DNA of 58,765 nt from a phage: the sequence record PX530564.1, one strand, 5' to 3'. This document shows positions 30,387 to 56,279 of this stretch, in pieces (position 1 is the first letter of the stretch; every line of letters begins with the position of its first letter). The translations under genes were made by a program, and so were the position numbers. The notes under the pieces were generated by a model. That model worked only from the letters and a program-made list of their open reading frames with translations. It was not told the origin of the DNA and made no database searches.

Positions 30387-30399
30387 AGGACACACTGTA

Positions 30400-31479: not shown

Positions 31480-31549
31480 TAGTCTTATCTTACAGGTCAT
31501 CTGCGGGTGGCCTGAAATAGATACGATTACTGACCGAAAGAGGTACAAA

Positions 31550-34201: not shown

Positions 34202-34209
34202 CGTCAAAT

Positions 34210-34232
34210 TAATACGACTCACTATAGAGGGG
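34210..34232 (+). promoter_or_regulatory. T7 RNAP promoter phi1.1A-like
   Basis: TAATACGACTCACTATAGAGGGA immediately after gene 1. Confidence 0.85.
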
Positions 34233-34233
34233 A

Positions 34234-34275
34234 CAAACTCAAGGTCATTCGCAAGAGTGGCCTTTATGATTGACC
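34234..34275 (+). promoter_or_regulatory. RNase III processing hairpin (R1.1-like)
   Basis: CAAACTCAAGGTCATTCGCAAGAGTGGCCTTTATGATTGACC. Confidence 0.45.
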
Positions 34276-34298
34276 TTCTTCCGGTTAATACGACTCAC
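34276..34298 (+). promoter_or_regulatory. T7 RNAP promoter phi1.1B-like
   Basis: TAATACGACTCACTATAGGAGAA. Confidence 0.85.
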
Positions 34299-34386
34299 TA
34301 TAGGAGAACCTTAAGGTTTAACTTTAAGACCCTTAAGTGTTAATTAAAGATTTAAATTAAAGAATTACTAAGAGAGGACTTTAAGT
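34299..34386 (+). other. AT-rich tract downstream of phi1.1A/B; candidate primary origin of replication
   Basis: About 75% A+T (..TTTAACTTTAAGACCCTTAAGTGTTAATTAAAGATTTAAATTAAAGAATTAC..) at the position of the T7 primary origin. Confidence 0.4.
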
Positions 34387-34515
34387 ATGCGTAACTTCGA
34401 AAAGATGACCAAACGTTCTACCCGTAATGCTCATGACTTCGAGGCAACTAAAGGTCGCAAGTTGAATAAGACTAAGCGTGACCGTTCCCATAAGCGTAGC
34501 TGGGAGGGTCAGTAA
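34387..34515 (+). CDS. 1.1: gene 1.1 basic protein (42 aa)
   Basis: ATG 34387, MRNFEKMTKRSTRNAHDFEATKGRKLNKTKRDRSHKRSWEGQ. Confidence 0.7.
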   Translation: MRNFEKMTKRSTRNAHDFEATKGRKLNKTKRDRSHKRSWEGQ

Positions 34516-34516
34516 G

Positions 34517-34774
34517 ATGGGACGTTTATACAGTGGGAACTTGAATGACTTCAAGGATGCTTGCAACAGGCTCTACCAGTTAGACTTTGCTGTTATTTGT
34601 GATGAATGGCATGATGCTTACAAACGCCTTGCGTGTATACGTCTACGCGTAGAGGACAGGGCTGGAAATCTGATTGATACCAATACGTTCTGTCACCACG
34701 ATGAAGACGTCTTGTACAATACGTGTACTGACTGGCTGAACCGTATGTACGACCAGTTGAAGGACTGGAAGTAA
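34517..34774 (+). CDS. 1.2: gene 1.2 protein (85 aa; dGTPase inhibitor in T7)
   Basis: ATG 34517 inside ORF 34478..34774; MGRLYSGNLNDFKDACNRLYQLDFAVICDEWHDAYKR.. Confidence 0.85.
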   Translation: MGRLYSGNLNDFKDACNRLYQLDFAVICDEWHDAYKRLACIRLRVEDRAGNLIDTNTFCHHDEDVLYNTCTDWLNRMYDQLKDWK

Positions 34775-34794
34775 TACGACTCAGTATAGGGACA
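34772..34794 (+). promoter_or_regulatory. T7 RNAP promoter phi1.3-like
   Basis: TAATACGACTCAGTATAGGGACA overlapping 1.2 stop. Confidence 0.75.
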
Positions 34795-34830
34795 ATGCTT
34801 AAGGTCGCTCATTGAGTGGCCTTAGTCATT
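34795..34830 (+). promoter_or_regulatory. RNase III processing hairpin (R1.3-like)
   Basis: AATGCTTAAGGTCGCTCATTGAGTGGCCTTAGTCATT. Confidence 0.4.
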
Positions 34831-34852
34831 TAACCAATAGGAGATAAACATT

Positions 34853-35878
34853 ATGATGAACATTAAGACCAACCCATTCAAAGCCGTGTCTTTCATAGAG
34901 TCTGCCATTAAGAAAGCTCTGGATAACGCTGGGTATCTTATTGCTGACATTAAGTACGATGGTGTGCGTGGTAACATCTGCGTAGACAATACCGCTAACT
35001 GCTGCTGGCTCTCTCGTGTATCCAAACCGATTCCGGCACTGTCTTACCTTAATGGGTTCGACGCACGTTGGCAGCGTCTACTAAAGGATGACCGTTGCTT
35101 CTACCCTGATGGCTTCATGCTGGATTGCGAACTTATGGTCAAGGGAGTGGACTTCAACACTGGCTCCGGCCTTCTGCGGACCAAGTGGCTCAACAAGAAG
35201 AACATGCAGTTCGATATTGGAGGTCCGTATGAATCGTGGGACGTGAGCCTGAAGGGACTTCCTTTCGGTATTGACCCGAACTTACTAACAGTTAAACTCT
35301 ACGCTATCCTTCCGTACCACATTGTGGAATCTGGGGAAGACTGTGATGTCATGACGTTGCTCATGCAGGAACACGTTAAGAACATGCTGCCTCTGCTACA
35401 GGAATACTTTCCTGAAATCGAATGGCAAGCGGCTGAGTCTTACGAGGTTTACGACATGGTAGAACTACAGCAACTGTACGAGAAGAAGCGTGAAGAAGGG
35501 CATGAGGGTCTCATTGTGAAAGACCCGATGTGCATCTACAAGCGCGGTAAGAAGTCCGGCTGGTGGAAACTTAAGCCTCTTGAGGAAGCTGACGGTATCA
35601 TTCAAGGTGTAAACTGGGGAACCGAAGGGCTTGCTAACGAAGGTAAGGTAATTGGATTCAAGGTGCTTCTTGAGACTGGTCGTCTTGTGGATGCCAATAA
35701 CATCTCTCGCGCCTTAATGGATGAATTTACAGCTAACGTTAAAGAACATGGCGAGGACTATTATAATGGCTGGGCTTGCCAGATTGGATTTATGGAGGAA
35801 ACACCAGATGGCTCATTGCGTCACCCGTCCTTCACCTGCTTCCGAGGAACTGAGGACAATCCGAAAGAGAAAGTATAA
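34853..35878 (+). CDS. 1.3: gene 1.3 ATP-dependent DNA ligase (341 aa)
   Basis: ORF track; adenylation-site motif ..IADIKYDGVRG.. and C-terminus ..ETPDGSLRHPSFTCFRGTEDNPKEKV. Confidence 0.92.
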   Translation: MMNIKTNPFKAVSFIESAIKKALDNAGYLIADIKYDGVRGNICVDNTANCCWLSRVSKPIPALSYLNGFDARWQRLLKDDRCFYPDGFMLDCELMVKGVDFNTGSGLLRTKWLNKKNMQFDIGGPYESWDVSLKGLPFGIDPNLLTVKLYAILPYHIVESGEDCDVMTLLMQEHVKNMLPLLQEYFPEIEWQAAESYEVYDMVELQQLYEKKREEGHEGLIVKDPMCIYKRGKKSGWWKLKPLEEADGIIQGVNWGTEGLANEGKVIGFKVLLETGRLVDANNISRALMDEFTANVKEHGEDYYNGWACQIGFMEETPDGSLRHPSFTCFRGTEDNPKEKV

Positions 35879-36278
35879 GTATAACCCTGCGGCTCCTTCG
35901 GGAGTCATTTCTGCCTCTGGTAAACCCATAGGGTACAAGCGGAAAGATGGGTATTGGGTTCTTTCTTATGGAGGAAAGCAGTTACTTGCACACAGGGTGG
36001 TCTGGATGCTTAACTTCGGTGCAATACCCGATGGAATGGTGATAGACCACATTAACAGAAACCCTAGCGACAACCGCATAGAGAATCTTCGAGTAGTAAC
36101 TCAATCAGCTAACCTAAGGAATGTAGGCGTCCGGTCTCACTGTAGGAGTGGAGAGAAGTTTATCTCCCTTGATGTGAGAACCGGACGTTTTTCCGTTCGT
36201 ATCAGGAGAAAATCCTATGGAACATATGGTACTCTCGAAGAGGCTATAGCTGTGCGCGATGCTAATACGACTCACTAA
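35808..36278 (+). CDS. HNH homing-endonuclease-like protein (about 156 aa) between ligase and gene 1.5
   Basis: ATG 35808 with GGAGGA RBS, inside ORF 35721..36278; motif ..GMVIDHINRNPSDNRIENLRVVTQSAN..; overlaps ligase 3' end by 71 nt; stop is the TAA of the phi1.5 promoter. Confidence 0.7.
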   Translation: MAHCVTRPSPASEELRTIRKRKYKYNPAAPSGVISASGKPIGYKRKDGYWVLSYGGKQLLAHRVVWMLNFGAIPDGMVIDHINRNPSDNRIENLRVVTQSANLRNVGVRSHCRSGEKFISLDVRTGRFSVRIRRKSYGTYGTLEEAIAVRDANTTH

Positions 36279-36285
36279 AGGAGGT
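36263..36285 (+). promoter_or_regulatory. T7 RNAP promoter phi1.5-like (block B copy)
   Basis: TAATACGACTCACTAAAGGAGGT. Confidence 0.85.
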
Positions 36286-36292
36286 ACACATC

Positions 36293-36382
36293 ATGATGTA
36301 CTTAATGCCATTACTCATTGTCATCATAGGATGCCTTGCGCTCCACTGTAGCGATGACGATATGCCAGATGGTCATGCTTAA
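36293..36382 (+). CDS. 1.5: gene 1.5 small membrane protein (29 aa), block B copy
   Basis: ATG 36293, MMYLMPLLIVIIGCLALHCSDDDMPDGHA, TAA 36380-36382. Confidence 0.65.
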   Translation: MMYLMPLLIVIIGCLALHCSDDDMPDGHA

Positions 36383-36402
36383 TACGACTCACTAAAGGAG
36401 AC
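36380..36402 (+). promoter_or_regulatory. T7 RNAP promoter phi1.6-like (block B copy)
   Basis: TAATACGACTCACTAAAGGAGAC. Confidence 0.85.
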
Positions 36403-36407
36403 ACTAT

Positions 36408-36668
36408 ATGTTTCGACTTCATTACAACAAAAGCATTAAGAATTTCACGGTTCGCCGTGCTGACCGTTCAATCGTATGTGCGAGCGAGCGCCGAGCTAAG
36501 TTACCTCTTATTGGTAACACAGTTCCTTTGGCACCGAGCGTCCACATCATTATCACCCGTGGTGACTTTGAGAAAGCAGTAGATAAGAAACGTCCGGTTC
36601 TTAGCGTGGCAGTGACCCGCTTCCCGTTCGTCCGTCTGTTACTCAAACGTATCAAGGAGGTGTTCTAA
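36408..36668 (+). CDS. 1.6: gene 1.6 protein (86 aa), block B copy
   Basis: ORF track; 5 aa differences from the copy at 231..491. Confidence 0.85.
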
Positions 36669-36995
36669 TGACTATTAACCATAAAGAATATTGTCGCTCC
36701 GTACTTAGCTTTGGGTCGTGCGATTGTGGTGCCACTACGAACCACGTGTCCAACAAACAACAAGACGTAGACGGTGTTCGTACTCCGAGCCATTACATGC
36801 TGTTTGACGACATTGAGGCTATTGAAGTGATTGCCCGTTCGATGACCAGTGAGCAGTTCAAAGGGTACTGCTTCGGGAACGTACTTAAATATCGCCTACG
36901 TGCTGGTAAGAAATCCGAACTGGCTTACTTAGAGAAGGACATGGCGAAAGCTGAGTTCTACGGTGAACTGTACGAGAAACATAAGGATAAGTGCT

Positions 36996-37009
<14 letters not shown>
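36668..37009 (+). CDS. 1.7: gene 1.7 protein, short allele (113 aa)
   Basis: ORF track; conserved C-terminal half, N-terminal Cys-rich region largely absent relative to the 213-aa block A allele. Confidence 0.8.
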
Positions 37010-37329
<320 letters not shown>

Positions 37330-37332
<3 letters not shown>

Positions 37333-37352
37333 TACGACTCACTATTGGGGGA
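37330..37352 (+). promoter_or_regulatory. T7 RNAP promoter phi2.5-like (block B copy)
   Basis: TAATACGACTCACTATTGGGGGA. Confidence 0.75.
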
Positions 37353-37398
37353 AGACTCCCTCTGAGAAACTAAACGAAACCTAAAGGAGATTAACATT

Positions 37399-38097
37399 AT
37401 GGCTAAGAAGATTTTCACCTCTGCGCTGGGTACTGCTGAACCTTACGCTTACATCTCTAAGCCGGACTACGGCAACGAAGAGCGTGGCTTTGGGAACCCT
37501 CGCGGTGTCTACAAAGTTGACCTGACTATTCCCAACAAAGACCCGCGCTGCCAACGTATGGTCGATGAAATCGTGAAGTGCCACGAAGAGGCTTATGCTG
37601 CTGCCGTTGAGGAATACGAAGCGAACCCGCCTTCTGTAGCTCGTGGTAAGAAACCACTGAAACCGTATGAAGGCGACATGCCGTTCTTCGATAACGGTGA
37701 CGGTACGACTACCTTTAAGTTCAAATGCTACGCGTCTTTCCAAGACAAGAAGACCAAAGAGACCAAGCACATTAATCTGGTTGTGGTTGACTCCAAAGGT
37801 AAGAAGATGGAAGACGTTCCGATTATCGGTGGTGGCTCTAAACTGAAAGTAAAATACTCGCTGGTTCCGTACAAGTGGAACACCGCTGTAGGCGCGAGCG
37901 TTAAGCTACAACTGGAATCCGTAATGCTGGTCGAACTGGCTACCTTTGGTGGCGGTGAAGATGATTGGGCTGACGAAGTTGAAGAGAACGGCTATGTTGC
38001 CTCTGGTTCTGCCAAAGCGAGCAAACCACGCGACGAAGAAAGCTGGGACGAAGACGACGAAGAGTCCGAGGAAGTAGACGAAGACGGAGACTTCTAA
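37399..38097 (+). CDS. 2.5: gene 2.5 ssDNA-binding protein (232 aa), block B copy
   Basis: ORF track. Confidence 0.9.
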   Translation: MAKKIFTSALGTAEPYAYISKPDYGNEERGFGNPRGVYKVDLTIPNKDPRCQRMVDEIVKCHEEAYAAAVEEYEANPPSVARGKKPLKPYEGDMPFFDNGDGTTTFKFKCYASFQDKKTKETKHINLVVVDSKGKKMEDVPIIGGGSKLKVKYSLVPYKWNTAVGASVKLQLESVMLVELATFGGGEDDWADEVEENGYVASGSAKASKPRDEESWDEDDEESEEVDEDGDF

Positions 38098-38553
38098 GTG
38101 GCTGGCGCATACGCTGCGCGTGGTATCAGAAAGGTCGGGACATTCCGTTCCGGCCTAGAAGATAAGGTCTCTAAGCAGCTAGAGGGTAAGGGTATTAAGT
38201 TCGATTATGAACTGTGGAAAATCCCTTACGTTGTCCCTGCGAGCAACCATGTGTATACTCCAGACTTCCTGCTGCCTAACGGAATCTTTATTGAAACCAA
38301 AGGTTTATGGGAGAGTGACGACCGAAAGAAACACTTATTGATTCGCGAACAGTTTCCTGAACTGGACATCCGTCTGGTGTTCTCAAGCTCACGCACCAAG
38401 CTATACAAAGGGTCTCCGACCAGTTACGGCGAATGGTGTGAGAAGCACGGTATTCTGTTTGCTGACAAATTAATTCCTGTAGAATGGCTCAAAGAACCCA
38501 AAAAGGAGGTGCCATTTGACAAGCTGAAACAATCGAAGGGAGGAAAGAAATAA
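38098..38553 (+). CDS. 3: gene 3 endonuclease I, block B copy
   Basis: ORF track, GTG start. Confidence 0.9.
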   Translation: MAGAYAARGIRKVGTFRSGLEDKVSKQLEGKGIKFDYELWKIPYVVPASNHVYTPDFLLPNGIFIETKGLWESDDRKKHLLIREQFPELDIRLVFSSSRTKLYKGSPTSYGEWCEKHGILFADKLIPVEWLKEPKKEVPFDKLKQSKGGKK

Positions 38554-39008
38554 TGGCTCGTGTACAGTTTAAACAACGTGAATCCACTGACGCAATCTTT
38601 GTTCACTGCTCGGCTACCAAGCCAAGCCAGAATGTAGGTGTCCGTGAGATTCGTCAGTGGCATAAAGAGCAAGGTTGGCTTGATGTCGGGTATCACTTTA
38701 TCATCAAGCGTGATGGTACTGTAGATGAAGGCCGAGATGAGATGGCTGTAGGTTCTCACGCTAAGGGTTACAACCACAACTCTATTGGTGTCTGCCTTGT
38801 AGGTGGTATCGACGATAAAGGCAAGTTCGACGCTAACTTTACGCCAGCCCAAATGCAATCCCTTCGCTCACTGCTTGTCACACTGCTGGCTAAGTATGAA
38901 GGCGCTGTACTGAAAGCCCATCACGATGTCGCACCCAAGGCTTGCCCTTCGTTCGACCTTAAGCGTTGGTGGGAGAAGAACGAACTGGTCACTTCTGACC
39001 GTGGATAA
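38553..39008 (+). CDS. 3.5: gene 3.5 lysozyme / amidase, block B copy
   Basis: ORF track. Confidence 0.92.
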   Translation: MARVQFKQRESTDAIFVHCSATKPSQNVGVREIRQWHKEQGWLDVGYHFIIKRDGTVDEGRDEMAVGSHAKGYNHNSIGVCLVGGIDDKGKFDANFTPAQMQSLRSLLVTLLAKYEGAVLKAHHDVAPKACPSFDLKRWWEKNELVTSDRG

Positions 39009-39009
39009 T

Positions 39010-39034
39010 TAATTGAACTCACTAAAGGGAGACC
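39010..39034 (+). promoter_or_regulatory. T7 RNAP promoter phi3.8-like (block B copy)
   Basis: TAATTGAACTCACTAAAGGGAGACC. Confidence 0.75.
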
Positions 39035-39064
39035 ACAACGGTTTCCCTTTGTTCGCGTTGTTGA

Positions 39065-40537
<1,473 letters not shown>

Positions 40538-40631: not shown

Positions 40632-40660
40632 TTGACAGCCTCCTTTAAAAGCTGTAAGAT
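40632..40660 (+). promoter_or_regulatory. sigma70-like promoter inside the shared 137-bp block (block C copy)
   Basis: TTGACAGCCTCCTTTAAAAGCTGTAAGATGTACC; block 40531..40667 near-identical to 28663..28799. Confidence 0.45.
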
Positions 40661-40847
40661 GTACCACGAAATGACGGAACAGTGAGTCACCACACTGAAA
40701 GGTGATGCGGCCTAACGAAACCTGACCAAAGACGCTCTTTAACAATCTGGTAAACGGCTCTTGAGTGTACACACGTAGCGGATAACTCAAGGGTATCGCA
40801 AGGTGCCCTTTATGATATCCACTAACAACACTATGAGGTAACACACA

Positions 40848-41198
40848 ATGGCTATGTCTAACATGACTTATAACAACGTTTTCGATCACGCTTACGAAAT
40901 GCTGAAAGAAAACATCCGTTATGATGACATCCGTGACACTGATGACCTGCACGATGTAGTACACATGGCAGCCGATAGCGCCGTTCCGCACTATTACAGC
41001 GACATTTTCAGCGTAATGGCAAGCGAGGGCATTGACCTTGAGTTCGAAGACTCTGGTCTGATGCCGGACACCAAGGACGTAATCCGTATCCTGCAAGCGC
41101 GTATCTATGAGCAACTCACGATTGACCTCTGGGAAGACGCTGAGGACTTACTGAACGAGTACCTTGAGGAAGTCGAAGCAGAAGAGGACGAAGAGTAA
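40848..41198 (+). CDS. ocr: gene 0.3 Ocr anti-restriction protein (116 aa), second copy
   Basis: ORF track; one aa difference from the copy at 29071. Confidence 0.93.
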
Positions 41199-41353
41199 TG
41201 ACTAACAACACCACGCAATACGGTCTGACCGCTCAAACTGTACTGTTCTATAGCGACATGGTGCGCTGTGGCTTTAACTGGTCGCTCGCAATGGAACACC
41301 TTAAGGAACTGTACGAAAACAACAAGGCAATAGCCTTGGAGTCTGCCGAGTGA
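41198..41353 (+). CDS. 0.4: gene 0.4 protein (51 aa), second copy
   Basis: ATG 41198, TGA 41351-41353. Confidence 0.65.
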   Translation: MTNNTTQYGLTAQTVLFYSDMVRCGFNWSLAMEHLKELYENNKAIALESAE

Positions 41354-41421
41354 TAGGCTCAAGGTCGCTCGATATGAGTGGCCTTTATGATTATCACTTT
41401 ACTTGAATGGGAGTAATGCAC

Positions 41422-41550
41422 ATGCTTACTATCGGTCTACTCACCGCTCTAGGTCTAGCTGTAGGCGCATCCTTTGGGAAGTCCTTAGGCGTAGCTGTAG
41501 GCGCTTACTTGGTCGCTTGTATCATTACGGGAGCACTGCGCAAATGCTGA
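41422..41550 (+). CDS. 0.5: gene 0.5 small membrane protein, second copy
   Basis: ATG 41422, MLTIGLLTALGLAVGASFGKSLGVAVGAYLVACIITGALRKC. Confidence 0.6.
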   Translation: MLTIGLLTALGLAVGASFGKSLGVAVGAYLVACIITGALRKC

Positions 41551-41706
41551 AACACTACGTTATGCCTATCCACACATCCAACGGGTCTACAGTATGCACA
41601 CCTGATGGGTTCGCAATGAAACAACGAATCGAACGCCTTAAGCGTGAACTGCGCATCAACCGCAAGATTAACAAGATAGGTTCCAGCTATGACAGAACTC
41701 ACTGAT
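41545..41706 (+). CDS. 0.6: gene 0.6A (53 aa); the overlapping frame 41689..41907 may give a 0.6B-type extension
   Basis: ATG 41545, MLKHYVMPIHTSNGSTVCTPDGFAMKQRIERLKRELRINRKINKIGSSYDRTH; overlapping ORF 41689..41907 in ORF track. Confidence 0.6.
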
Positions 41707-41928
41707 GGCTTAAAGAAAGGTTACATGACCAACGGTACACTATACGCTGCAAATAGGCGAATAGTGAGAACTTGGCGAGAGAACAACCTTGAACGCCGTA
41801 AGGCCCAAGAAAGGGCGGCATGGCATCGGCGAAAGGAAAAGGTTAAAGCCAAGAAACTCGCCGCACTTGAAAAGGCACTAGCCAATACACTGAACGCTAT
41901 CTCATAACGAACTAAAGGACACACTGAA

Positions 41929-42987
<1,059 letters not shown>

Positions 42988-43000
42988 TACGTGATGATAT

Positions 43001-43023
43001 TAATTAGACTCACTAAAGGAGGT
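43001..43023 (+). promoter_or_regulatory. T7 RNAP promoter (phi4.3-type) upstream of HNH gene
   Basis: TAATTAGACTCACTAAAGGAGGT. Confidence 0.65.
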
Positions 43024-43029
43024 AGCCAC

Positions 43030-43449
43030 ATGAGCACTGACTTAGAGAGACTTGAAAGATTCTTGAAGATTGAGGGCGATTGCTGGCTGTTCACTGGCGG
43101 CAAGTCACATGCCTACGGAGTGTTCTGGATGGGTGGTAAGAATCACAAGGCACATAGGGCTGCCTTCGAACTTTATAATGGGAGGAAACCTAATGGTGTT
43201 ATATTACACTCTTGTGATAATCCTTTGTGCTGCAATCCCGCTCATCTATCTGAGGGAACTCAGCTTGATAATATGGTGGACATGGTTAGAAAGGGACGCT
43301 CGTTAAAGGGTACGAAGAATCCCGCATGTAAGTTTACCGATGAGGATGTCAAGTTCATTCAGGAGTCTACCATGAAGGTCAAAGATTTAGCCACTCTATT
43401 CGGAGTGACGCGCCAAACAATAACCAGATGGAGGAAACACCATGTTTAA
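43030..43449 (+). CDS. HNH homing-endonuclease-like protein with C-terminal helix-turn-helix (139 aa) between gene 4 and gene 4.3
   Basis: ATG 43030 with AAGGAGG RBS inside ORF 42991..43449; ..HRAAFELYNGRKPNGVILHSCDNPLCCNPAHLSEGTQLDN.. and C-terminal ..LATLFGVTRQTITRWRK. Confidence 0.75.
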   Translation: MSTDLERLERFLKIEGDCWLFTGGKSHAYGVFWMGGKNHKAHRAAFELYNGRKPNGVILHSCDNPLCCNPAHLSEGTQLDNMVDMVRKGRSLKGTKNPACKFTDEDVKFIQESTMKVKDLATLFGVTRQTITRWRKHHV

Positions 43450-43654
43450 ACTGATTAAGAAGTTGGGCAAACTGCTGGTTCGTTTGTATAACGTGGAAGC
43501 CAAGCGACTGAACGACGAGGCCCGTAATGAAGCCACACAGTCCCGCGCTCTGGCTATCCGCTCTAACGAACTGGCTGACAGCGCATCAAATAAAGTTACC
43601 GAGGCAGCTCGCGTAGCCAACCAAGCTCAACAACTTTCCAAATTCTTTGAGTAA
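43442..43654 (+). CDS. 4.3: gene 4.3 protein (70 aa), block D copy
   Basis: ORF track. Confidence 0.8.
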   Translation: MFKLIKKLGKLLVRLYNVEAKRLNDEARNEATQSRALAIRSNELADSASNKVTEAARVANQAQQLSKFFE

Positions 43655-43673
43655 TCAAACAGGAGAAACCATC

Positions 43674-43943
43674 ATGTCTAACGTAGCTGAAACTATCCGT
43701 CTATCCGATACCGCTGACCAGTGGAACCGTCGAGTCCACATCAACGTTCGCAACGGTAAGGCGACTATGGTTTACCGCTGGAAGGACTCTAAGTCCTCTA
43801 AGAATCACACTCAGCGTATGACATTGACTGACGAGCAAGCACTGCGTCTGGTCAATGCGCTTACCAAAGCTGCCGTGACCGCAATTCATGAGGCTGGTCG
43901 CGTTGATGAAGCTATGGCTATCCTCGACAAGATTGACAGCTAA
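43674..43943 (+). CDS. 4.5: gene 4.5 protein (89 aa), block D copy
   Basis: ATG 43674 inside ORF 43647..43943. Confidence 0.8.
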   Translation: MSNVAETIRLSDTADQWNRRVHINVRNGKATMVYRWKDSKSSKNHTQRMTLTDEQALRLVNALTKAAVTAIHEAGRVDEAMAILDKIDS

Positions 43944-43984
43944 GAGTGGTATGCTCAAGGTCGCCCAAGCGGTGGCCTTCATGA

Positions 43985-44008
43985 ATACTATTCGACTCAC
44001 TATAGGAG
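43985..44008 (+). promoter_or_regulatory. T7 RNAP promoter phi4.7-like (block D copy)
   Basis: ACTATTCGACTCACTATAGGAGAT. Confidence 0.7.
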
Positions 44009-44016
44009 ATATGACC

Positions 44017-44424
44017 ATGCGTGACCCTAAAGTTATCCAAGCAGAAATCGCTAAACTGGAAGCTGAACTTGAGGACGTTAAGTACCATGAAGCCAAGACT
44101 CGCTCCGCTGTTCACATTTTGAAGAACTTAGGGTGGACTTGGACACGACAGACTGGCTGGAAGAAGCCGGAAGTTTACAAGTTGAGCCACAAGGTGTTCG
44201 ATAAGGACACTATGACCCACATCAAGGCTGGTGATTGGGTTAAGGTTGACATGGGAGTTGTTGGTGGGTACGGCTATGTCCGCTCAGTGAGTGGCAAATA
44301 CGCACAAGTGTCATACATCACTGGCGTTACTCCGCGAGGAGCAATCGTTGCAGACAAGACCAACATGATTCACACAGGCTTCTTGACAGTTGTCTCGTAT
44401 GAAGAGATTGTTAAGTCACGATAA
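44017..44424 (+). CDS. 4.7: gene 4.7 protein (135 aa), block D copy
   Basis: ATG 44017 (MRDPKVIQ..) inside ORF 43888..44424. Confidence 0.8.
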   Translation: MRDPKVIQAEIAKLEAELEDVKYHEAKTRSAVHILKNLGWTWTRQTGWKKPEVYKLSHKVFDKDTMTHIKAGDWVKVDMGVVGGYGYVRSVSGKYAQVSYITGVTPRGAIVADKTNMIHTGFLTVVSYEEIVKSR

Positions 44425-44442
44425 TCAATAGGAGAAATCAAT

Positions 44443-46557
44443 ATGATCGTTTCTGACATCGAAGCTAACGCCCTCTTAGAGAGCGTCACTAAGTTCCACT
44501 GCGGGGTTATCTACGACTACTCCACCGCTGAGTACGTAAGCTACCGTCCGAGTGACTTCGGTGCGTATCTGGATGCGCTGGAAGCCGAGGTTGCACGAGG
44601 CGGTCTTATTGTGTTCCACAACGGTCACAAGTATGACGTTCCCGCATTGACCAAACTGGCAAAGCTACAATTGAACCGAGAGTTCCACCTTCCTCGTGAG
44701 AACTGTATCGACACCCTTGTGCTGTCACGCTTGATTCACTCTAACCTAAAGGACACCGATATGGGTCTTCTGCGTTCCGGTAAACTGCCTGGGAAACGCT
44801 TTGGGTCTCACGCTCTGGAGGCGTGGGGTTATCGCTTAGGAGAGATGAAGGGTGAATACAAGGATGACTTTAAGCGTATGCTTGAAGAGCAAGGTGAAGA
44901 ATACGTTGACGGAATGGAGTGGTGGAACTTCAACGAAGAGATGATGGACTATAACGTTCAGGACGTTGTTGTCACTAAGGCTCTCCTTGAGAAGCTACTC
45001 TCTGACAAACATTACTTCCCTCCTGAGATTGACTTTACGGACGTAGGTTACACTACGTTCTGGTCAGAATCCCTTGAGGCCGTTGATGTTGAACATCGCG
45101 CTGCATGGCTACTCGCTAAGCAAGAGCGCAATGGATTCCCGTTTGACACTAAAGCAATCGAAGAGTTGTACGTAGAGTTAGCTGCTCGACGCTCTGAGTT
45201 GCTCCGTAAATTGACCGAAACGTTCGGCTCGTGGTATCAGCCTAAAGGTGGCACAGAAATGTTCTGCCATCCGAGGACTGGTAAGCCATTGCCTAAATAC
45301 CCTCGCATTAAGACACCTAAAGTTGGTGGTATCTTTAAGAAGCCTAAGAACAAGGCACAGCGAGAAGGCCGTGAGCCTTGCGAACTGGATACCCGCGAGT
45401 ACGTTGCTGGTGCTCCGTATACTCCAGTTGAGCACGTAGTGTTTAACCCTTCGTCTCGTGACCACATCCAGAAGAAACTCCAAGAGGCTGGATGGGTCCC
45501 AACCAAGTACACCGATAAGGGCGCTCCTGTGGTGGACGATGAGGTACTCGAAGGAGTGCGTGTGGATGACCCTGAGAAGCAAGCTGCTATCGACCTCATT
45601 AAAGAATACTTGATGATTCAGAAGAGAATCGGACAGTCCGCTGAGGGAGACAAGGCTTGGCTTCGCTATGTTGCCGAGGACGGTAAGATTCATGGTTCTG
45701 TTAACCCTAATGGAGCAGTTACGGGTCGTGCTACCCATGCGTTCCCCAACCTTGCGCAAATTCCGGGTGTACGTTCTCCTTATGGAGAGCAGTGTCGCGC
45801 TGCTTTTGGCGCTGAGCACCATTTGGATGGGATAACTGGTAAGCCTTGGGTGCAGGCAGGTATCGACGCATCCGGTCTGGAGCTACGCTGCTTGGCTCAC
45901 TTCATGGCTCGCTTTGATAACGGCGAGTACGCTCACGAGATTCTTAATGGTGACATTCACACTAAGAACCAGATGGCTGCTGAATTGCCTACCCGTGATA
46001 ACGCTAAGACGTTCATCTATGGGTTCCTTTATGGGGCTGGCGATGAGAAGATTGGGCAGATTGTCGGTGCTGGTAAAGAGCGCGGTAAGGAACTCAAGAA
46101 GAAATTCCTTGAGAACACCCCTGCGATTGCAGCACTACGTGAGTCTATCCAACAGACCCTTGTTGAGTCCTCTCAGTGGGTGGCTGGTGAACAGCAAGTC
46201 AAGTGGAAACGCCGCTGGATTAAAGGTCTGGATGGTCGTAAGGTACACGTCCGTAGTCCTCACGCTGCCTTGAATACCCTACTACAATCTGCTGGTGCTC
46301 TCATCTGCAAACTGTGGATTATCAAGACCGAAGAGATGCTCGTAGAGAAAGGCTTGAAGCACGGCTGGGATGGGGACTTTGCGTACATGGCATGGGTACA
46401 TGATGAAATCCAAGTAGGTTGCCGTACCGAAGAGATTGCTCAGGTTGTCATTGAGACAGCACAAGAAGCAATGCGCTGGGTTGGAGACCACTGGAACTTC
46501 CGGTGTCTTCTGGATACCGAAGGTAAGATGGGTCCTAATTGGGCCGTATGTCACTAA
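44443..46557 (+). CDS. 5: gene 5 DNA polymerase (704 aa), block D copy
   Basis: ORF track; near-identical to 6082..8196. Confidence 0.97.
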
Positions 46558-46576
46558 TTCTATAGGAGAAATTATT

Positions 46577-46873
46577 ATGGCTATCACGAAGAAATTTAAA
46601 GTGTCCTTTGATGTTACCCTTAAGCTGGACAGCGAGACCGAAGAACTTATGCGAGAAAAGATTCTGGACTTAGCTCATCGTGCTGGCGCTGGTGAGGAGA
46701 TTGGTCCTATGGACCGAGAGTTGTTAGTTCAGGCCCTGACACGCGGCCCAGATGGTGCTGCTGCATTTGCTGTACGACAAGGTATCCGTAATGCTGTCAA
46801 GGAGATGTTCGAAGATTCTAGTGATAAAGCACTGTTCAAACAGTCTCCTGCAACTGTACGGGAGGTGTTCTGA
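46577..46873 (+). CDS. 5.5: gene 5.5 protein, divergent allele (98 aa)
   Basis: ATG 46577 inside ORF 46436..46873; conserved ends MA.TKKFKVSFDVT.. and ..KQSPATVREVF with a divergent centre. Confidence 0.8.
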   Translation: MAITKKFKVSFDVTLKLDSETEELMREKILDLAHRAGAGEEIGPMDRELLVQALTRGPDGAAAFAVRQGIRNAVKEMFEDSSDKALFKQSPATVREVF

Positions 46874-47082
46874 TGTCTGACTATCTGAAAGTGCTGCAAG
46901 CAATCAAAGGTTGCCCTAAGACTTTCCAGTCCAACTATGTACGGAACAACGCGAGCCTCGTAGCGGAGGCCGCTTCCCGTGGTCACATCTCATGTCTGAC
47001 TACAAGCGGACGAAACGGTGGTGCTTGGGAAATCACTGCTTCTGGTACTCGCTTTCTGAAACGAATGGGAGGGTGTGTCTGA
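46873..47082 (+). CDS. 5.7: gene 5.7 protein (69 aa), block D copy
   Basis: ORF track; identical protein to 8754..8963. Confidence 0.8.
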   Translation: MSDYLKVLQAIKGCPKTFQSNYVRNNASLVAEAASRGHISCLTTSGRNGGAWEITASGTRFLKRMGGCV

Positions 47083-47240
47083 TGGTGCGTGACACTGTAA
47101 CAATTCCTCGTGATGCGTGGAACGATATGCAGGGTTATATTGATTCTCTGGAACGTGAGAACGATAGCCTTAAGAACCAACTTATGGAAGCTGACGAATA
47201 CGTGGCTGAGCTAGAGGAGAAACTTAATGGCGCTTCTTGA
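47082..47240 (+). CDS. 5.9: gene 5.9 protein (52 aa), block D copy
   Basis: ATG 47082 inside ORF 46992..47240. Confidence 0.75.
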   Translation: MVRDTVTIPRDAWNDMQGYIDSLERENDSLKNQLMEADEYVAELEEKLNGAS

Positions 47241-48129
47241 CCTTAAACAATTCTACGAGTTACGTGAAGGCTGTAACGACAAGGGTATCCTTGTGATGGA
47301 TGGTGACTGGCTGGTCTTCCAAGCTATGAGTGCTGCCGAGTTTGATGCCTCTTGGGAGGAAGAGATTTGGCACCGCTGCTGCGACCACGCTAAGGCCCGT
47401 AAGATTCTGGATGATTCCATCAAGTCCTATGAGACCCGTAAGAAGGCTTGGGTAGGTGCTCCGATTGTCCTTGCGTTCACAGATAGTGTCAACTGGCGTA
47501 AAGAACTGGTGGACCCGAACTACAAGGCTAACCGTAAGGCCACGAAGAAACCTGTAGGTTACTTTGAGTTCCTTGATGCTCTCTTTGAGCGTGAAGAGTT
47601 CTACTGCATTCGTGAGCCTATGCTTGAGGGAGATGACGTTATGGGAGTGATTGCTTCCAATCCGTCTGCCTTCGGTGCCCGTAAGGCGGTAATCATCTCG
47701 TGTGATAAGGACTTCAAGACCATCCCTAACTGTGACTTCTTGTGGTGTACCACTGGTAACATCCTGACTCAGACCGAAGAGTCCGCTGACTGGTGGCACC
47801 TATTCCAGACAATCAAGGGTGATATTACCGATGGTTACTCAGGGATTGCCGGATGGGGTGATACCGCTGAGGACTTCTTGAATAACCCGTTCATTACCGA
47901 GCCTAAGACCTCTGTGCTTAAGTCTGGTAAGAACAAAGGGCAGGAGGTAACTAAGTGGGTTAAACGCGACCCTGAGCCTCATGAGACGCTTTGGGACTGC
48001 ATTAAGTCCATTGGTGCGAAGGCTGGTATGACCGAAGAGGATGTCATCAAGCAGGGCCAAATGGCTCGCATCCTACGGTTCAATGAGTACAACTTTATTG
48101 ACAAGGAGATTTACCTGTGGAGACCGTAG
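47227..48129 (+). CDS. 6: gene 6 5'-3' exonuclease (300 aa), block D copy
   Basis: ORF track. Confidence 0.92.
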   Translation: MALLDLKQFYELREGCNDKGILVMDGDWLVFQAMSAAEFDASWEEEIWHRCCDHAKARKILDDSIKSYETRKKAWVGAPIVLAFTDSVNWRKELVDPNYKANRKATKKPVGYFEFLDALFEREEFYCIREPMLEGDDVMGVIASNPSAFGARKAVIISCDKDFKTIPNCDFLWCTTGNILTQTEESADWWHLFQTIKGDITDGYSGIAGWGDTAEDFLNNPFITEPKTSVLKSGKNKGQEVTKWVKRDPEPHETLWDCIKSIGAKAGMTEEDVIKQGQMARILRFNEYNFIDKEIYLWRP

Positions 48130-48250
48130 CGTATATTGGCATTGGTCTTTGTGTCCTCGGAATTGGCCTCATTGCGTGGGGCCTTTGGGACTTAGCCCGA
48201 ATAATCAAGTCCTTACACGACACTAAGTGATAAACTCAAGGTCCCTAAAT

Positions 48251-48273
48251 TAATACGACTCACTATAGGGAGA
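48251..48273 (+). promoter_or_regulatory. T7 RNAP class III promoter phi6.5-like (block D copy)
   Basis: TAATACGACTCACTATAGGGAGA. Confidence 0.9.
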
Positions 48274-48327
48274 TAGGGGCCTTTATGATTATTACTTTAA
48301 GATTTAACTCTAAGAGGAATCTTTATC

Positions 48328-48582
48328 ATGTTAACACCTATTAGCCAATTACTTAAGAACCCTAACGATATTCCAGACGTGCCTCGTGCAACCGCTGAGT
48401 ATCTACAGGTTCGATTCAACCATGCGTATCTCGAAGCGTCTGGTCATATAGGACTTATGCGTGCTAATGGTTGCAGTGAAGCCCACATCTTGGGTTTCAT
48501 TCAGGGCCTACAGTATGCCTCTAACGTCATTGACGAGATTGAGTTACGCAAGGAACAACTAAGAGATGATTTGGAGGATTGA
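48328..48582 (+). CDS. 6.5: gene 6.5 protein (84 aa), block D copy
   Basis: ORF track. Confidence 0.8.
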
Positions 48583-48586
48583 CACT

Positions 48587-48720
48587 ATGTGTTTCTCACC
48601 GAAAATTAAAACTCCGAAGATGGATACCAATCAGATTCGAGCCGTTGAGCCAGCGCCTCTGACCCAAGAAGTGTCAAGCGTGGAGTTCGGTGGGTCTTCT
48701 GATGAGACGGATACCGAAGG
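48587..48720 (+). pseudogene. 6.7: gene 6.7 5' portion (about 45 codons) truncated by deletion junction
   Basis: ATG 48587, MCFSPKIKTPKMDTNQIRAVEPAPLTQEVSSVEFGGSSDETDTEG, then sequence switches to the gene 15 3' region at 48721. Confidence 0.8.
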
Positions 48721-49278
48721 CCTGAGATTGCCCGTATGCCAGCGTCACTGCGTGAGTCTGCGCGTAAGATTTATGACTCAGTTAAATATCGCTCAGGGAA
48801 CGAAAGTATGGCTATGGAGCAGATGACCAAGTTCCTTAAGGAATCTACCTACACGTTCACTGGTGACGATGTTGGTGGTGATACCGTTGGTGTAATTCCG
48901 AAGAACATGATGCAAGTCAACTCTGACCCGAAATCATGGGAGCAAGGTCGCGATATTCTGGAGGAAGCACGTAAGGGAATCATTGCGAGCAACCCTTGGA
49001 TAACCAACAAGCAACTGACCATGTATTCTCAAGGTGACTCCATTTACCTCATGGACACCACTGGTCAAGTCCGCGTCCGTTATGATAAAGAGTTACTATC
49101 GAAGGTATGGAGTGAGAACCAGAAGAAACTCGAAGAGAAGGCTCGCGAGAAGGCTCTGACTGATGTTAACAAGCGAGCACCTATCGTTGCCGCTAAGAAG
49201 GCCCGTGAAGCTGCTGCTAAACGAGTCCGAGAGAAACGTAAACAGACTCCGAAGTTCATCTATGGACGTAAGGAGTAA
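48721..49278 (+). pseudogene. 15: 3' portion of gene 15 (last ~185 codons) without native start
   Basis: In gene-15 frame ..PEIARMPASLRESARKIYDSVKYRSGNE.. matching the C-terminus of 19545..21788; ORF track 48736..49278. Confidence 0.85.
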
Positions 49279-49304
49279 CTAAAGGCTACATAAGGAGGCC
49301 CTAA

Positions 49305-52300
49305 ATGGATAAGTACGATAAGAACGTACCAAGTGATTATGATGGTCTGTTCCAAAAGGCGGCTGATGCCAACGGGGTCTCGTATGACCTTTTACGTAAA
49401 GTCGCTTGGACGGAATCACGCTTTGTACCTACAGCAAAATCTAAGACTGGACCATTAGGCATGATGCAGTTCACCAAGGCAACCGCTAAGGCACTTGGTC
49501 TGCGAGTTACCGATGGTCCAGATGATGACCGACTAAACCCTGAGTTGGCTATCAATGCTGCCGCCAAGCACCTTGCAGGTCTGGTAGGGAAGTTTGATGG
49601 CGATGAACTCAAAGCTGCCCTTGCATACAACCAAGGCGAGGGACGCTTGGGTAATCCTCAACTTGAGGCGTACTCTAAGGGAGACTTCGCGTCCATCTCT
49701 GAGGAAGGACGGAACTACATGCGTAACCTTCTGGATGTTGCTAAGTCACCTATGGCTGGACAGTTAGAAACTTTTGGAGGTATCACCCCAAAGGGTAAAG
49801 GCATTCCGGCTGACGTTGGACTAGCTGGAATAGACCATAGTCAGAAAGTAACACAGGAACTTCCTGAGTCCACAAGTTTTGACGTTAAAGGTATCGAACA
49901 GGAGGCTCCGGCGAAACCATTCGCCAAGGACTTTTGGGAGACCCACGGAGAAACACTTGATGAGTACAACAGTCGTTCAACCTTCTTCGGATTCAAAAAT
50001 GCTGCCGAAGCTGAACTCTCCAACTCAGTCGCTGGGATGGCTTTCCGTGCTGGTCGCCTCGATAATGGTTTTGATGTGTTTAAAGACACCATTACGCCGA
50101 CTCGCTGGAACTCTCACATCTGGACTCCAGAAGAGTTAGAGAAGATTCGAACTGAGGTTAAGAACCCTGCGTATATCAACGTGGTAACTGGTGGTTCTCC
50201 TGAGAATCTTGACGACCTCATTAAGCTGGCTAACGAGAACTTTGAGAATGACTCACTCGCTGCCGAAGCTGGCCTCGGTGCTAAACTGAGTGCTGGCATT
50301 ATTGGCGCTGGTGTGGACCCTCTTAGTTATGTTCCCATGGTTGGTGTAACTGGTAAGGGCTTTAAGTTAATCAATAAGGCTCTTGTGGTTGGTGCAGAAA
50401 GTGCTGCGCTGAACGTTGCATCCGAAGGTCTCCGCACATCCGTAGCTGGTGGCGATGCAGATTATGCTGGTGCTGCCTTAGGTGGCTTTGTGTTTGGCGC
50501 TGGTATGTCTGCAATCAGTGATGCTGTAGCTGCTGGTCTGAAACGTAGTAAACCAGAAGCTGAGTTCGACAATGAGTTCATTGGTCCCATGATGCGGATG
50601 GAAGCCCGTGAGACAGCGCGTAACGCCAACTCTGCGGACCTCTCTCGGATGAACACTGAGAACATGAAGTTTGAAGGTGAATACAAAGGCGTTCCATATG
50701 AGGAACTTCCGACCGAAAAGGGTGCTGTGGTTCTCCATGACGGCTCCATACTTAGTGCGAGCAACCCAATCAACCCCAAGACTCTCAAAGAGTTCTCCGA
50801 GGTTGACCCTGAGAAAGCGGCACGAGGAATCAAACTAGCAGGGTTCACTGAGATAGGGTTAAAGACCTTAGGCTCAGACGACGCTGATATTCGACGGGTA
50901 GCTATTGACCTAGTGCGGTCTCCTACCGGAATGCAATCAGGTTCCTCAGGGAAGTATGGTTCAACAGCTTCGGACATTTTCGAGAAACTTCGTGGCACTG
51001 ACCAGCGTACTTACAACGACTTGTATAAGGCGATGTCTGACGCGATGAAAGACCCTGAGTTCTCCACTGGCGGCGCTAAGATGTCTCGCGAAGAAGCTCG
51101 TTACACTATCGAGCGTCGAGTGTCCTTGGCTATTGAGAACCCTGAGCTACAGAAGGCTTTAACTCCTAACGAGCGAATCGTAATGGACATCGTTAAGCGA
51201 CATTATGACACCAAGCGTGAACTTATGGAGAACCCTGCGGTCTTTGGTAACACGAAGGCTGTGAGTATCTTTCCGGAGAGTAGACACAAGGGAACATATG
51301 TTCCACATGTGTACGACAAGTACGCTAAGGCACTCAAAATTCAACAATATGGTGCTGAGGGCTTACAGGAAGGTATCGCTCGGTCATGGATGTGTAGCTA
51401 CGATTTGAGGCCTGCGGTAAAGGCCCGTATTGACGAAGCACTTAAAGAGATGCACGGTGTAGAGGAAGTCACACATGATATGGTGTATAAGTACGCTATG
51501 GATAAAGCATACGGTATCTCTCACTCAGACAGGTTCACTAATAGCTCCATCATTGAGGAGAACATTGAGGGTCTTGTTGGTATTGAGAATAACTCATTCC
51601 TTGAAGCACGAAACCTCTTTGACTCCGACTTAGCAATCACCATGCCAGATGGTCAGCAATTCTCTGTGAACGATTTGAGGGACTTTAGTATGTTCCGTAT
51701 CATGCCAGCGTATGACCGCCGTATCAACGGTGACATAGCCATCATGGGGTCTACCGGTAAAACCACTAAGGAACTTAAGGATGAGATTTTGGCTCTCAAA
51801 GCGAAAGCTGAGGGTGACGGTAAGAAGACTGGCGAGGTTCATGCTCTAATGGATACCGTTAAGATTCTTACTGGTCGTGCTCGACGCAATCAGGACACTG
51901 TGTGGGAAACCTCACTGCGTGCCATTAATGACCTAGGGTTCTTCGCCAAGAACGCCTATATGGGTGCTCAGAACCTTACGGAGATTGCTGGGATGATTGC
52001 CACGGGTAACGTGCGTGCTCTTGGTCACGGTATCCCAATTCTACGTGATACACTCTACAAGTCTAAACCAGTTTCCGCTAAGGAACTTAAGGAACTCCAT
52101 GCGTCTCTGTTCGGGAAGGAGGTGGACCAGTTGATTAGACCTCAACGTGCTGACATAGTGCAGCGTCTAAGGGAAGCAACTGACACAGGGCCTGTTGTGG
52201 CGAACATCGTAGGAACCTTAAAGTATTCCACACAGGAACTAGCTGCTCGCTCTCCATGGACTAAGCTGCTTAATGGAACCACTAACTACCTTCTTGATGC

Positions 52301-53111: not shown

Positions 53112-53257
53112 ATGCTCCCAACAAAGCCACTGAGCAGGACTTCATGACTGGCTTGATGAACTCTACCAAGGAGTTAGTACCTAACGACCCTCTTACTCAA
53201 CAGCTTGTGTTGAAGATTTATGAGGCGAATGGTGTTAACTTGAGGGAACGTCGGAAA

Positions 53258-53280
53258 TAATACGACTCACTATAGGGAGA
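53258..53280 (+). promoter_or_regulatory. T7 RNAP class III promoter phi17-like (block E copy)
   Basis: TAATACGACTCACTATAGGGAGA. Confidence 0.9.
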
Positions 53281-53332
53281 GGCGAAAGAATCTTCTCCCT
53301 GTAGTCTCTTAGATTTACTTTAAGGAGGTCAA

Positions 53333-55205: not shown

Positions 55206-55222
55206 GGATAACACTGGATTAG

Positions 55223-55236
55223 GACCAAGGATGGTA
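55223..55236 (+). promoter_or_regulatory. stem-loop upstream of holin gene
   Basis: ACCA-AGGA-TGGT-type hairpin, related to 27926..27943. Confidence 0.3.
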
Positions 55237-55253
55237 TTTAATAAGGAGGATAC

Positions 55254-55457: not shown

Positions 55458-55462
55458 TATGT

Positions 55463-55732: not shown

Positions 55733-55774
55733 TATACTCAAGGCCACTACATATAGTGGTCTTTATGGATGTCA
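55729..55774 (+). promoter_or_regulatory. RNase III processing hairpin (R18.5-like)
   Basis: GTGATATACTCAAGGCCACTACATATAGTGGTCTTTATGGATGTC. Confidence 0.4.
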
Positions 55775-55826
55775 TTGTCTACACGAGATGCTCCTACGTG
55801 AAATCTGAAAGTTAACGGGAGGCATT

Positions 55827-56270: not shown

Positions 56271-56279
56271 GGAGGCAAT

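What the first reader, a model, noticed from the sequence alone, without database searches (positions are those of the whole stretch)
42991..43449. Second HNH endonuclease with helix-turn-helix between gene 4 and gene 4.3; class II promoter relocated upstream
The 139-aa product has an HNH / zinc-finger-like core (HSCDNPLCCNPAHL) and a C-terminal HTH. In block A, gene 4 and 4.3 are separated by only ~90 bp holding the phi4.3 promoter. Here the promoter precedes the endonuclease and gene 4.3 overlaps its 3' end, as expected if a homing endonuclease cassette inserted downstream of the promoter.
Basis: partly seen in the sequence, partly recalled or inferred. Interest (0 to 1): 0.45.

Follow-up and report, generated by a model that had tools for sequence, protein, structure and literature searches.

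The report
HNH homing endonuclease gene insertion
This is an ordinary selfish DNA-cutting-enzyme gene (an HNH homing endonuclease related to T7 genes 2.8 and 7.7) inserted just after a phage promoter between the helicase gene and gene 4.3, and the identical gene is already annotated in Escherichia phages N30 and C5.

Summary
A 139-aa ORF (ATG 43030, stop 43447-43449) matches Pfam HNH_3 (E = 3e-12) and has a C-terminal three-helix HTH. It lies 8 nt downstream of a phi4.3-type T7 RNA polymerase promoter (42999-43021, +1 at 43018). Its last 8 nt overlap the start of gene 4.3.

Nine-way alignment maps a clean 413-bp insertion after CTCACTAAAGGAG (43022-43434). About 110 phage records carry the empty site and 8 records (6 phages) carry the filled one.

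The DNA from 42771 to 46900 is 100% identical to Escherichia phages N30 and C5, where the ORF is annotated "putative HNH endonuclease". The protein is 44-45% identical to T7 gp2.8 and gp7.7. Orthologues at about 70% identity sit after gene 4 in Berlinvirus Kvp1 and in metagenomic contigs, with a different fine placement.

The gene is under purifying selection (dN/dS 0.11-0.15). The AlphaFold model (pLDDT 90) most resembles I-PpoI and I-HmuI.

Two caveats: the promoter did not move, and in this window "gene 4" is only a 213-nt fragment, because the window is a composite of several phage genomes. Cleavage and homing are inferred, not shown.

Verdict: already known, low interest.

The parts
42771..42983 (+). 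3' fragment of gene 4 (primase/helicase). It encodes the C-terminal residues ...[20 protein letters not shown] and the stop TAA at 42981-42983. It is cut off at 42770|42771 by a junction to gene 0.7 sequence.
   Evidence: BLAST against N30 and T7, the junction sequences and the ORF list.
42999..43021 (+). phi4.3-type class II T7 RNA polymerase promoter, ATTAATTAGACTCACTAAAGGAG. Position -17 is 43001 and +1 is G at 43018. It differs from consensus at -13/-12 (TA instead of AC). It shares -2A and +3A with T7 phi4.3.
   Evidence: Pattern search with 0 expected by chance. It aligns with the annotated T7 promoter phi4.3, whose start is at 13341.
43022..43434 (+). Inserted cassette of 413 bp relative to empty sites. 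GGAG occurs at both ends (43018-43021 and 43430-43433), so the boundaries are ambiguous by 4 nt.
   Evidence: Nine-way alignment A2 of filled and empty sites and the precise-excision query.
43030..43449 (+). HNH endonuclease gene, 139 aa plus stop. The Shine-Dalgarno AAGGAGG lies at 43016-43022.
   Evidence: Pfam HNH_3 E = 3.2e-12. PHROG endonuclease E = 2e-29. 100% identical to N30 and C5. dN/dS 0.11-0.15.
43147..43278 (+). HNH_3 / His-Me finger nuclease core (residues 40-83). Invariant residues here include H60, C62, D63, C67, H72, G76 and N81.
43339..43437 (+). C-terminal three-helix helix-turn-helix DNA-binding domain (residues 104-136).
43442..43654 (+). Gene 4.3 (70 aa, DUF5471). Its ATG overlaps the HNH stop in ATGTTTAA. 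Its Shine-Dalgarno GGAGG (43430-43434) lies inside the end of the HNH ORF.
   Evidence: Pfam DUF5471 E = 8.7e-47, the sequence itself and the N30 annotation gp4.3.

Best explanation
The ORF is a free-standing HNH homing endonuclease gene of the T7 gp2.8/gp7.7 family. It has a compact I-HmuI-like layout: an N-terminal beta-rich region, a His-Me finger nuclease core stabilised by Cys/His zinc ligands, and a C-terminal HTH.

It sits as a 413-bp cassette at +5 of the phi4.3 class II promoter. It is therefore transcribed by the phage RNA polymerase together with the DNA-metabolism genes. It uses the Shine-Dalgarno that formerly served gene 4.3, and it supplies a replacement GGAGG and an ATGTTTAA stop/start overlap so that gene 4.3 is still translated.

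The rest is inferred and not shown here. In a mixed infection with a related phage that lacks the cassette, the enzyme would bind DNA through its HTH and nick or cut near the gene 4/4.3 junction. T7-type recombinational repair would then copy the cassette, and some flanking markers, from the HNH-carrying genome. The carrier is probably protected because the insertion splits the sequence AAAGGAG|ACACACC, or because of nearby substitutions.
For: Family and fold:
- Pfam HNH_3 scores above its gathering threshold, and PHROG endonuclease families match.
- The protein is 44-45% identical over its full length to T7 gp2.8 and gp7.7.
- H60, D63, H72 and N81, together with C18, C62 and C67, are invariant across 52 homologues.

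Insertion:
- Boundaries against four empty sites are clean.
- A precise-excision query aligns in one piece to about 110 HNH-less records, against 8 filled records.

Site specificity and mobility:
- Every orthologue at 70% identity or more lies immediately after gene 4. This covers Teseptimavirus, Berlinvirus Kvp1 and pO103, and three metagenomic contigs.
- The fine placement differs. The promoter is upstream of the ORF in the N30 type. In Kvp1, L011 and L012 the ORF overlaps the end of gene 4, and the promoter lies downstream in Kvp1 and L012.
- The JB01 cassette is 95-100% identical to N30 while its flanks are 73-87% identical.
- The cassette occurs with both the short and the long gene 4-promoter spacer.

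Intact function: dN/dS is 0.11-0.15 between the two allele groups.

Expression: the promoter and Shine-Dalgarno geometry can be read directly from the sequence.
Confidence: 0.75

Rival explanations
1. The gene is a domesticated accessory gene. It would be kept mainly because its DNA binding helps the phage, for example by blunting a host defence that senses DNA breaks, or by excluding competing phages. Self-propagation would be secondary. This is not exclusive of homing.
For: A 2025 preprint reports that phage HNH homing endonucleases, including T7 gp3.8, attenuate the GAPS4 defence independently of catalysis. It also reports that T7 lacking three homing endonucleases is outcompeted when GAPS4 is present (bioRxiv 10.1101/2025.09.07.674715). 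Purifying selection here extends over the HTH as well as the nuclease core.
Against: Only 8 of about 118 related records carry the gene, which fits a selfish element better than a generally useful gene. The catalytic residues are strictly conserved. No PADLOC or anti-defence family match exists beyond a weak 'homing endonuclease' hit. Nothing here tests GAPS4.
Confidence: 0.15
2. The ORF is ancestral to this phage group and has been deleted in most lineages. The 'empty' sites would then be deletion scars rather than uninvaded targets.
For: The lineage is old enough to show 30% protein divergence while staying next to gene 4. GGAG occurs at both ends of the cassette and could mediate a precise deletion.
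Against: Empty sites in four divergent backgrounds have exactly the same promoter-RBS-ATG junction. The fine position of the ORF relative to the promoter differs between the N30 type and the Kvp1 type, which implies separate insertion events. The cassette is more similar between N30 and JB01 than their flanks are. Paralogues occupy other intergenic sites in the same genomes.
Confidence: 0.05
3. The gene is an inactive relic, an HNH-like ORF that no longer cuts DNA and is drifting toward loss.
For: Many phage homing endonuclease genes decay after fixation. No activity data exist for this one.
Against: The ORF is intact in all six phages. dN/dS is 0.11-0.15. All family-invariant residues are retained. 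The AF2 model is confident.
Confidence: 0.05

Closest known systems
Escherichia phage N30 / C5 'putative HNH endonuclease' (AYD80141.1; MH717098 12212..12667)
   Same: The DNA is 100% identical over window 42771-46900. Same gene, same neighbours (gp4 upstream, gp4.3 downstream).
   Different: GenBank annotates the start at the GTG 39 nt upstream (152 aa), which would put the promoter inside the ORF. The ATG at window 43030 (139 aa) is the better start. In this window the upstream gene 4 is truncated by a composite junction.
T7 gene 2.8 and gene 7.7 products (NP_041971, NP_041994)
   Same: 44% and 45% identity over nearly the full length. Same HNH_3 core (LHSCDNPLCCNP.HL..GT) and same C-terminal HTH. 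Also small free-standing intergenic genes of T7-like phages.
   Different: They occupy different loci, between genes 2.5 and 3 and between genes 7.3 and 8. Neither block of this window has a 2.8 or 7.7 gene.
Kluyvera phage Kvp1 'gene 2.8' after gene 4 (ACJ14561; Berlinvirus), and Escherichia phage pO103
   Same: About 70% identical protein lying immediately downstream of gene 4. It was annotated as an HNH homing endonuclease in 2008 (PMC2579914 lists genes 4.7-2.8 as a region of dissimilarity to phage Berlin).
   Different: The ORF starts inside the last 35 nt of gene 4 and the phage promoter lies downstream of it, the reverse order to N30. In Kvp1, genes 4.3 and 4.5 are absent.
I-HmuI (PDB 1U3E), intron-encoded HNH homing endonuclease of Bacillus phage SPO1
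   Different: 15-17% identity. I-HmuI is 174 aa and intron-encoded, and it is a proven nickase that lacks the Cys-rich zinc site. This protein is free-standing and uncharacterised.
I-PpoI (PDB 1A73), His-Cys box homing endonuclease
   Different: It is a eukaryotic, intron-encoded homodimer without an HTH. Sequence identity is 17%, and the Pfam hit is below threshold.

Membership tests
Pfam HNH_3 (PF13392) / His-Me finger nucleases | Profile score above the curated gathering threshold | tested here: met
   46.3 bits against 24.8, E = 3.2e-12, profile positions 2-46 of 46.
Pfam HNH_3 (PF13392) / His-Me finger nucleases | Conserved catalytic His and metal-ligand Asn/His, plus Cys zinc ligands | tested here: met
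   H60, D63, H72, N81 and C18, C62, C67 are invariant in 52 homologues, and N69 is nearly invariant. The assignment of roles to these residues is by analogy only.
Pfam HNH_3 (PF13392) / His-Me finger nucleases | Beta-beta-alpha-metal fold | tested here: met
T7 gp2.8/gp7.7-type free-standing HNH endonucleases | Full-length homology including the C-terminal HTH | tested here: met
   BLASTP gives E = 1e-29 (44%, residues 8-136) to gp2.8 and E = 3e-29 (45%) to gp7.7.
Homing endonuclease genes (functional definition) | Presence/absence polymorphism at a conserved site among related genomes | tested here: met
   8 filled records against about 110 empty ones, with identical junctions.
Homing endonuclease genes (functional definition) | Site-specific cleavage or nicking of the allele that lacks the gene | not testable with these tools
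   This needs purified protein and empty-site DNA.
Homing endonuclease genes (functional definition) | Biased inheritance (gene conversion) in mixed infection, with co-conversion of flanks | tested here: inconclusive
   The cassette is more similar than its flanks between N30 and JB01. The background is mosaic, and only 3 flank positions are fixed between 5 filled and 4 empty sequences. Phage crosses are required.
Intron- or intein-encoded homing endonucleases | The ORF lies inside a self-splicing intron or is fused in frame as an intein | tested here: not met
   The ORF is intergenic, with its own Shine-Dalgarno and ATG. No Rfam family, including group I introns, matches 42000-44500 at E <= 1.

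The most novel reading that the evidence does not exclude
The homing site could be the phi4.3 promoter and initially transcribed region itself, since the cassette sits exactly at +5. The endonuclease would then recognise a T7 RNA polymerase promoter/RBS junction. It might also bind it as an HTH regulator or act as an anti-defence DNA-end binder, like T7 gp3.8 against GAPS4. That would give a selfish element that doubles as a regulator or immunity-evasion factor of class II expression.
Probability: 0.08. Interest if true: 0.4.

Novelty: already known. Interest (0 to 1): 0.08.

Why it matters
It matters little beyond annotation. The result documents one more site (gene 4 / gene 4.3) where gp2.8/gp7.7-type HNH genes invade T7-like phages, and it maps the junction to the base. 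It shows how the cassette takes over a class II promoter and ribosome-binding site while restoring translation of the downstream gene. It also corrects the start codon in the N30 and C5 records. The two arrangements, promoter before the ORF in the N30 type and after it in the Kvp1 type, give a convenient natural pair for anyone who wants to test homing or interference competition among T7-like phages.

Tried and rejected
- Sequence search of PDB chains gave only noise: Spire at E = 0.004 and a Geobacter HNH at E = 0.15.
- NCBIfam gave nothing useful. PADLOC gave only a weak 'homing endonuclease' model hit.
- Rfam found no intron or other RNA family.
- The sigma-70 promoter and terminator scan found nothing above chance.
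- Looking up the exact 139-aa and 152-aa products in the assembly index found no contig, so the window's source could not be identified that way.
- IMG/VR added no close relatives beyond N30, C5 and Kvp1. I therefore dropped a larger test of association between flank SNPs and cassette presence.
- Literature searches found no paper on N30 or C5.
- I considered de Bruijn misassembly as the cause of the truncated gene 4 and rejected it. The junctions share at most 1-2 nt, and the neighbouring segments are 100% identical to separate GenBank genomes starting or ending exactly at genome termini.
- Minus-strand ORFs under the feature (46, 32 and 74 aa) were dismissed as spurious. They have no homology support, and all annotated genes of N30 and T7 are on the + strand.

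Full report
**What is at the coordinates**

The + strand between 42991 and 43449 holds one ORF. Read from the GTG at 42991 it is 152 aa.

The ATG is the credible start. The GTG lies upstream of the promoter. AAGGAGG (43016-43022) sits 7 nt before the ATG. The orthologues in phages AH67C600_Q5, JB01 and Bas102 are annotated from the ATG.

The protein contains LHSCDNPLCCNPAHL at residues 59-73.
- Pfam HNH_3 scores 46.3 bits (gathering score 24.8, E = 3.2e-12) over residues 40-83.
- Several HTH models hit residues 108-137 just under threshold.
- PHROG endonuclease families match, with E-values down to 2e-29.

So the ORF is real, it is an HNH-family protein, and it has a C-terminal HTH.

**Surroundings**

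ATTAATTAGACTCACTAAAGGAG at 42999-43021 is a T7 RNA polymerase promoter of the phi4.3 type. The pattern search expects none by chance. It aligns column for column with the annotated T7 phi4.3 promoter, which places +1 at G 43018. It departs from consensus at -13/-12 (TA for AC).

Downstream, gene 4.3 (43442-43654; Pfam DUF5471, E = 9e-47) starts inside the last codons of the HNH ORF, in the overlap ATGTTTAA. Gene 4.5 follows (TA_inhibitor, E = 3e-61). Upstream lies the end of gene 4, with its stop at 42981-42983.

No Rfam family, sigma-70 promoter or terminator of note lies in the region. The short minus-strand ORFs have no support.

**Mapping the insertion**

I aligned the locus with four empty sites (T7, HZ2R8, IME390 and the window's own block A) and four other filled sites (Q5, JB01, LNA7, Bas102).
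- All nine sequences agree through ...CTCACTAAAGGAG.
- Empty sites continue with ACACA(C/T)C ATG TT(C/T) AAA CTG, the start of gene 4.3.
- Filled sites carry 413 extra bp (window 43022-43434) and then rejoin at ACAC(C/T)ATGTT.

GGAG occurs at both ends of the cassette, so the boundary is ambiguous by 4 nt. The cassette therefore begins at +5 of the promoter's transcript. It takes over the Shine-Dalgarno that served gene 4.3, and its last codons (…W R K H H V) contain a new GGAGG for gene 4.3.

An artificial precise-excision sequence aligns in one uninterrupted piece to about 110 HNH-less phage records. It aligns in two pieces to the 8 filled records.

The promoter has not moved. The 45-bp shorter spacer between gene 4 and the promoter, compared with block A and T7, is a separate indel. 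HZ2R8 and IME390 lack the HNH gene but have the short spacer. JB01 has the HNH gene with the long spacer.

**Identity with known genomes**

Window 42771-46900 is 100% identical to Escherichia phages N30 (MH717098) and C5 (MH717099), and 42771-48721 is 99.75% identical to N30. There the ORF is annotated "putative HNH endonuclease" between gp4 and gp4.3. Further carriers are AH67C600_Q5 and JB01 (97% protein identity) and LNA7 and Bas102 (87%).

**Family relations**

The protein is 44% identical to T7 gp2.8 and 45% identical to T7 gp7.7 over nearly its whole length, HTH included. tblastn finds more than 1,400 phage records with homologues, mostly Autographiviridae, and these lie at various intergenic sites.

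Orthologues at about 70-77% identity occur in Berlinvirus Kvp1 and pO103 and in three metagenomic T7-like contigs. In every case they lie directly after gene 4.

The fine arrangement differs. In Kvp1, L011 and L012 the ORF begins inside the last 35 nt of gene 4. In Kvp1 and L012 the phage promoter lies after the ORF. The lineage is thus specific for this neighbourhood but has entered it more than once, as free-standing homing endonuclease genes do.

**Is the gene functional?**

All six carriers have an intact ORF. Between the N30/Q5/JB01 alleles and the LNA7/Bas102 alleles, dS is 0.37-0.52 and dN is 0.05-0.07, giving dN/dS of 0.11-0.15.

In a 52-sequence alignment, C18, Y29, G30, H60, C62, D63, C67, H72, G76, N81 and R90 are invariant.

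**Mechanism: shown and inferred**

Shown:
- family membership;
- the domain layout;
- the insertion polymorphism and its exact junctions;
- the expression signals;
- purifying selection.

Inferred from what is established for phage HNH homing endonucleases (for example I-HmuI, I-BasI and I-PfoP3I, reviewed in PMC3428280): in a mixed infection the enzyme nicks or cuts HNH-less genomes near the gene 4/4.3 junction, and recombinational repair copies the cassette.

Hints of mobility exist. The JB01 cassette is 95-100% identical to N30 while the adjoining 150-bp windows are 73-87% identical. T7-like genomes are mosaic throughout, however, so this is only suggestive. Three flank positions (42972, 42987, 43436) separate the five filled from the four empty sequences. 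They are leads for the target or immunity determinants, not evidence.

**Alternatives**

A beneficial, non-homing role cannot be excluded. A 2025 preprint reports that T7 homing endonucleases blunt the GAPS4 defence without needing catalysis (10.1101/2025.09.07.674715).

An ancestral gene lost many times is unlikely. The empty junctions are identical across backgrounds, and the placement relative to the promoter differs between lineages. An inactive relic is unlikely given the selection signal.

**Context caveat**

The window is not one genome.
- 28001-40530 is 100% identical to phage vB_EcoM_CQ615 bases 1-12530.
- 40646-42770 matches N30 699-2823 at 99.9%.
- 42771-48721 matches N30 11989-17939.
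- 48722-58765 is 100% identical to phage 64795_ec1 bases 29192-39235, its last base.
- 1-28000 is a different phage, with Serratia phage Pila the best match at 95%.

The joints share at most 1-2 nt. Hence gene 4 next to the HNH ORF is only a 213-nt fragment here. The finding itself lies wholly inside the N30 segment and is unaffected.

**Verdict**

The feature is an already annotated, ordinary free-standing HNH homing endonuclease gene. Novelty: already known. Interest: low.

Noticed in passing
window 28000|28001, 40530|40531, 42770|42771, 48721|48722: The window is a composite of several T7-like genomes joined at sharp junctions with at most 1-2 nt of shared sequence. 28001-40530 equals CQ615 bases 1-12530 (100%). 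40646-42770 and 42771-48721 are two non-adjacent N30 pieces. 48722-58765 equals 64795_ec1 29192-39235, up to its last base (100%). Gene 4 is interrupted, genes 7-15 are missing in block B, and genes 17.5-19.5 are missing after block A. This does not look like a k-mer collapse. It is either an artificial concatenation or chimeric reads.
   Followed up: partly
window 35721-36278 (+): Another HNH_3 ORF (185 aa, Pfam E = 1.6e-20) overlaps the 3' end of the ligase gene 1.3 (34853-35878). It resembles the N30 ORF at 38108-38551.
   Followed up: partly
L014 (Kvp1) 1474-1934; L012 3001-3500; L011 3001-3440: In Berlinvirus-type relatives the orthologous HNH ORF starts inside the last 35 nt of gene 4. 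In Kvp1 and L012 the phage promoter lies downstream of the ORF, the opposite order to N30. This implies independent insertions in the same neighbourhood.
   Followed up: partly
window 42984-42998 versus 4989-5050; T7 13266-13323: There is a 45-bp indel in the spacer between the gene 4 stop and the phi4.3 promoter, the region that encodes the end of T7 gene 4.2. It is short in N30, Q5, LNA7, Bas102, HZ2R8 and IME390, and long in T7, block A and JB01. It is independent of HNH presence.
   Followed up: partly
MH717098 12212..12667 (= window 42991-43449): The GenBank CDS for the N30 and C5 HNH gene starts at a GTG upstream of the promoter. The ATG 39 nt downstream (window 43030) has the Shine-Dalgarno and matches the annotated starts of the orthologues.
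   Followed up: yes
L007 (Bas102) 3172 onward: The Bas102 DNA polymerase CDS is annotated as joined from two pieces, which suggests an intron or other intervening sequence in gene 5 of that phage.
   Followed up: no
L012 1-179 and 6161-6444: The metagenomic T7-like contig carrying the 70% orthologue has two further HNH_3 genes. One lies before endonuclease I (the gene 2.8 position) and one after the DNA polymerase (the gene 5.3 position), so it has at least three such genes in 6.4 kb.
   Followed up: no
window 27528-27905 (+): A 125-aa ORF directly after the tail fibre gene in block A is 94% identical to the N30 ORF at 34853-35230. It has no Pfam hit.
   Followed up: no
window 42972, 42987, 43436: These are the only flank positions within about 70 nt that are fixed between the five HNH-carrying and four HNH-less sequences (T/A, A/G, A-or-G/C). 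The first changes the third-last codon of gene 4 from Thr/Asn to Ser. They are possible target or immunity determinants, or hitch-hiking markers.
   Followed up: partly
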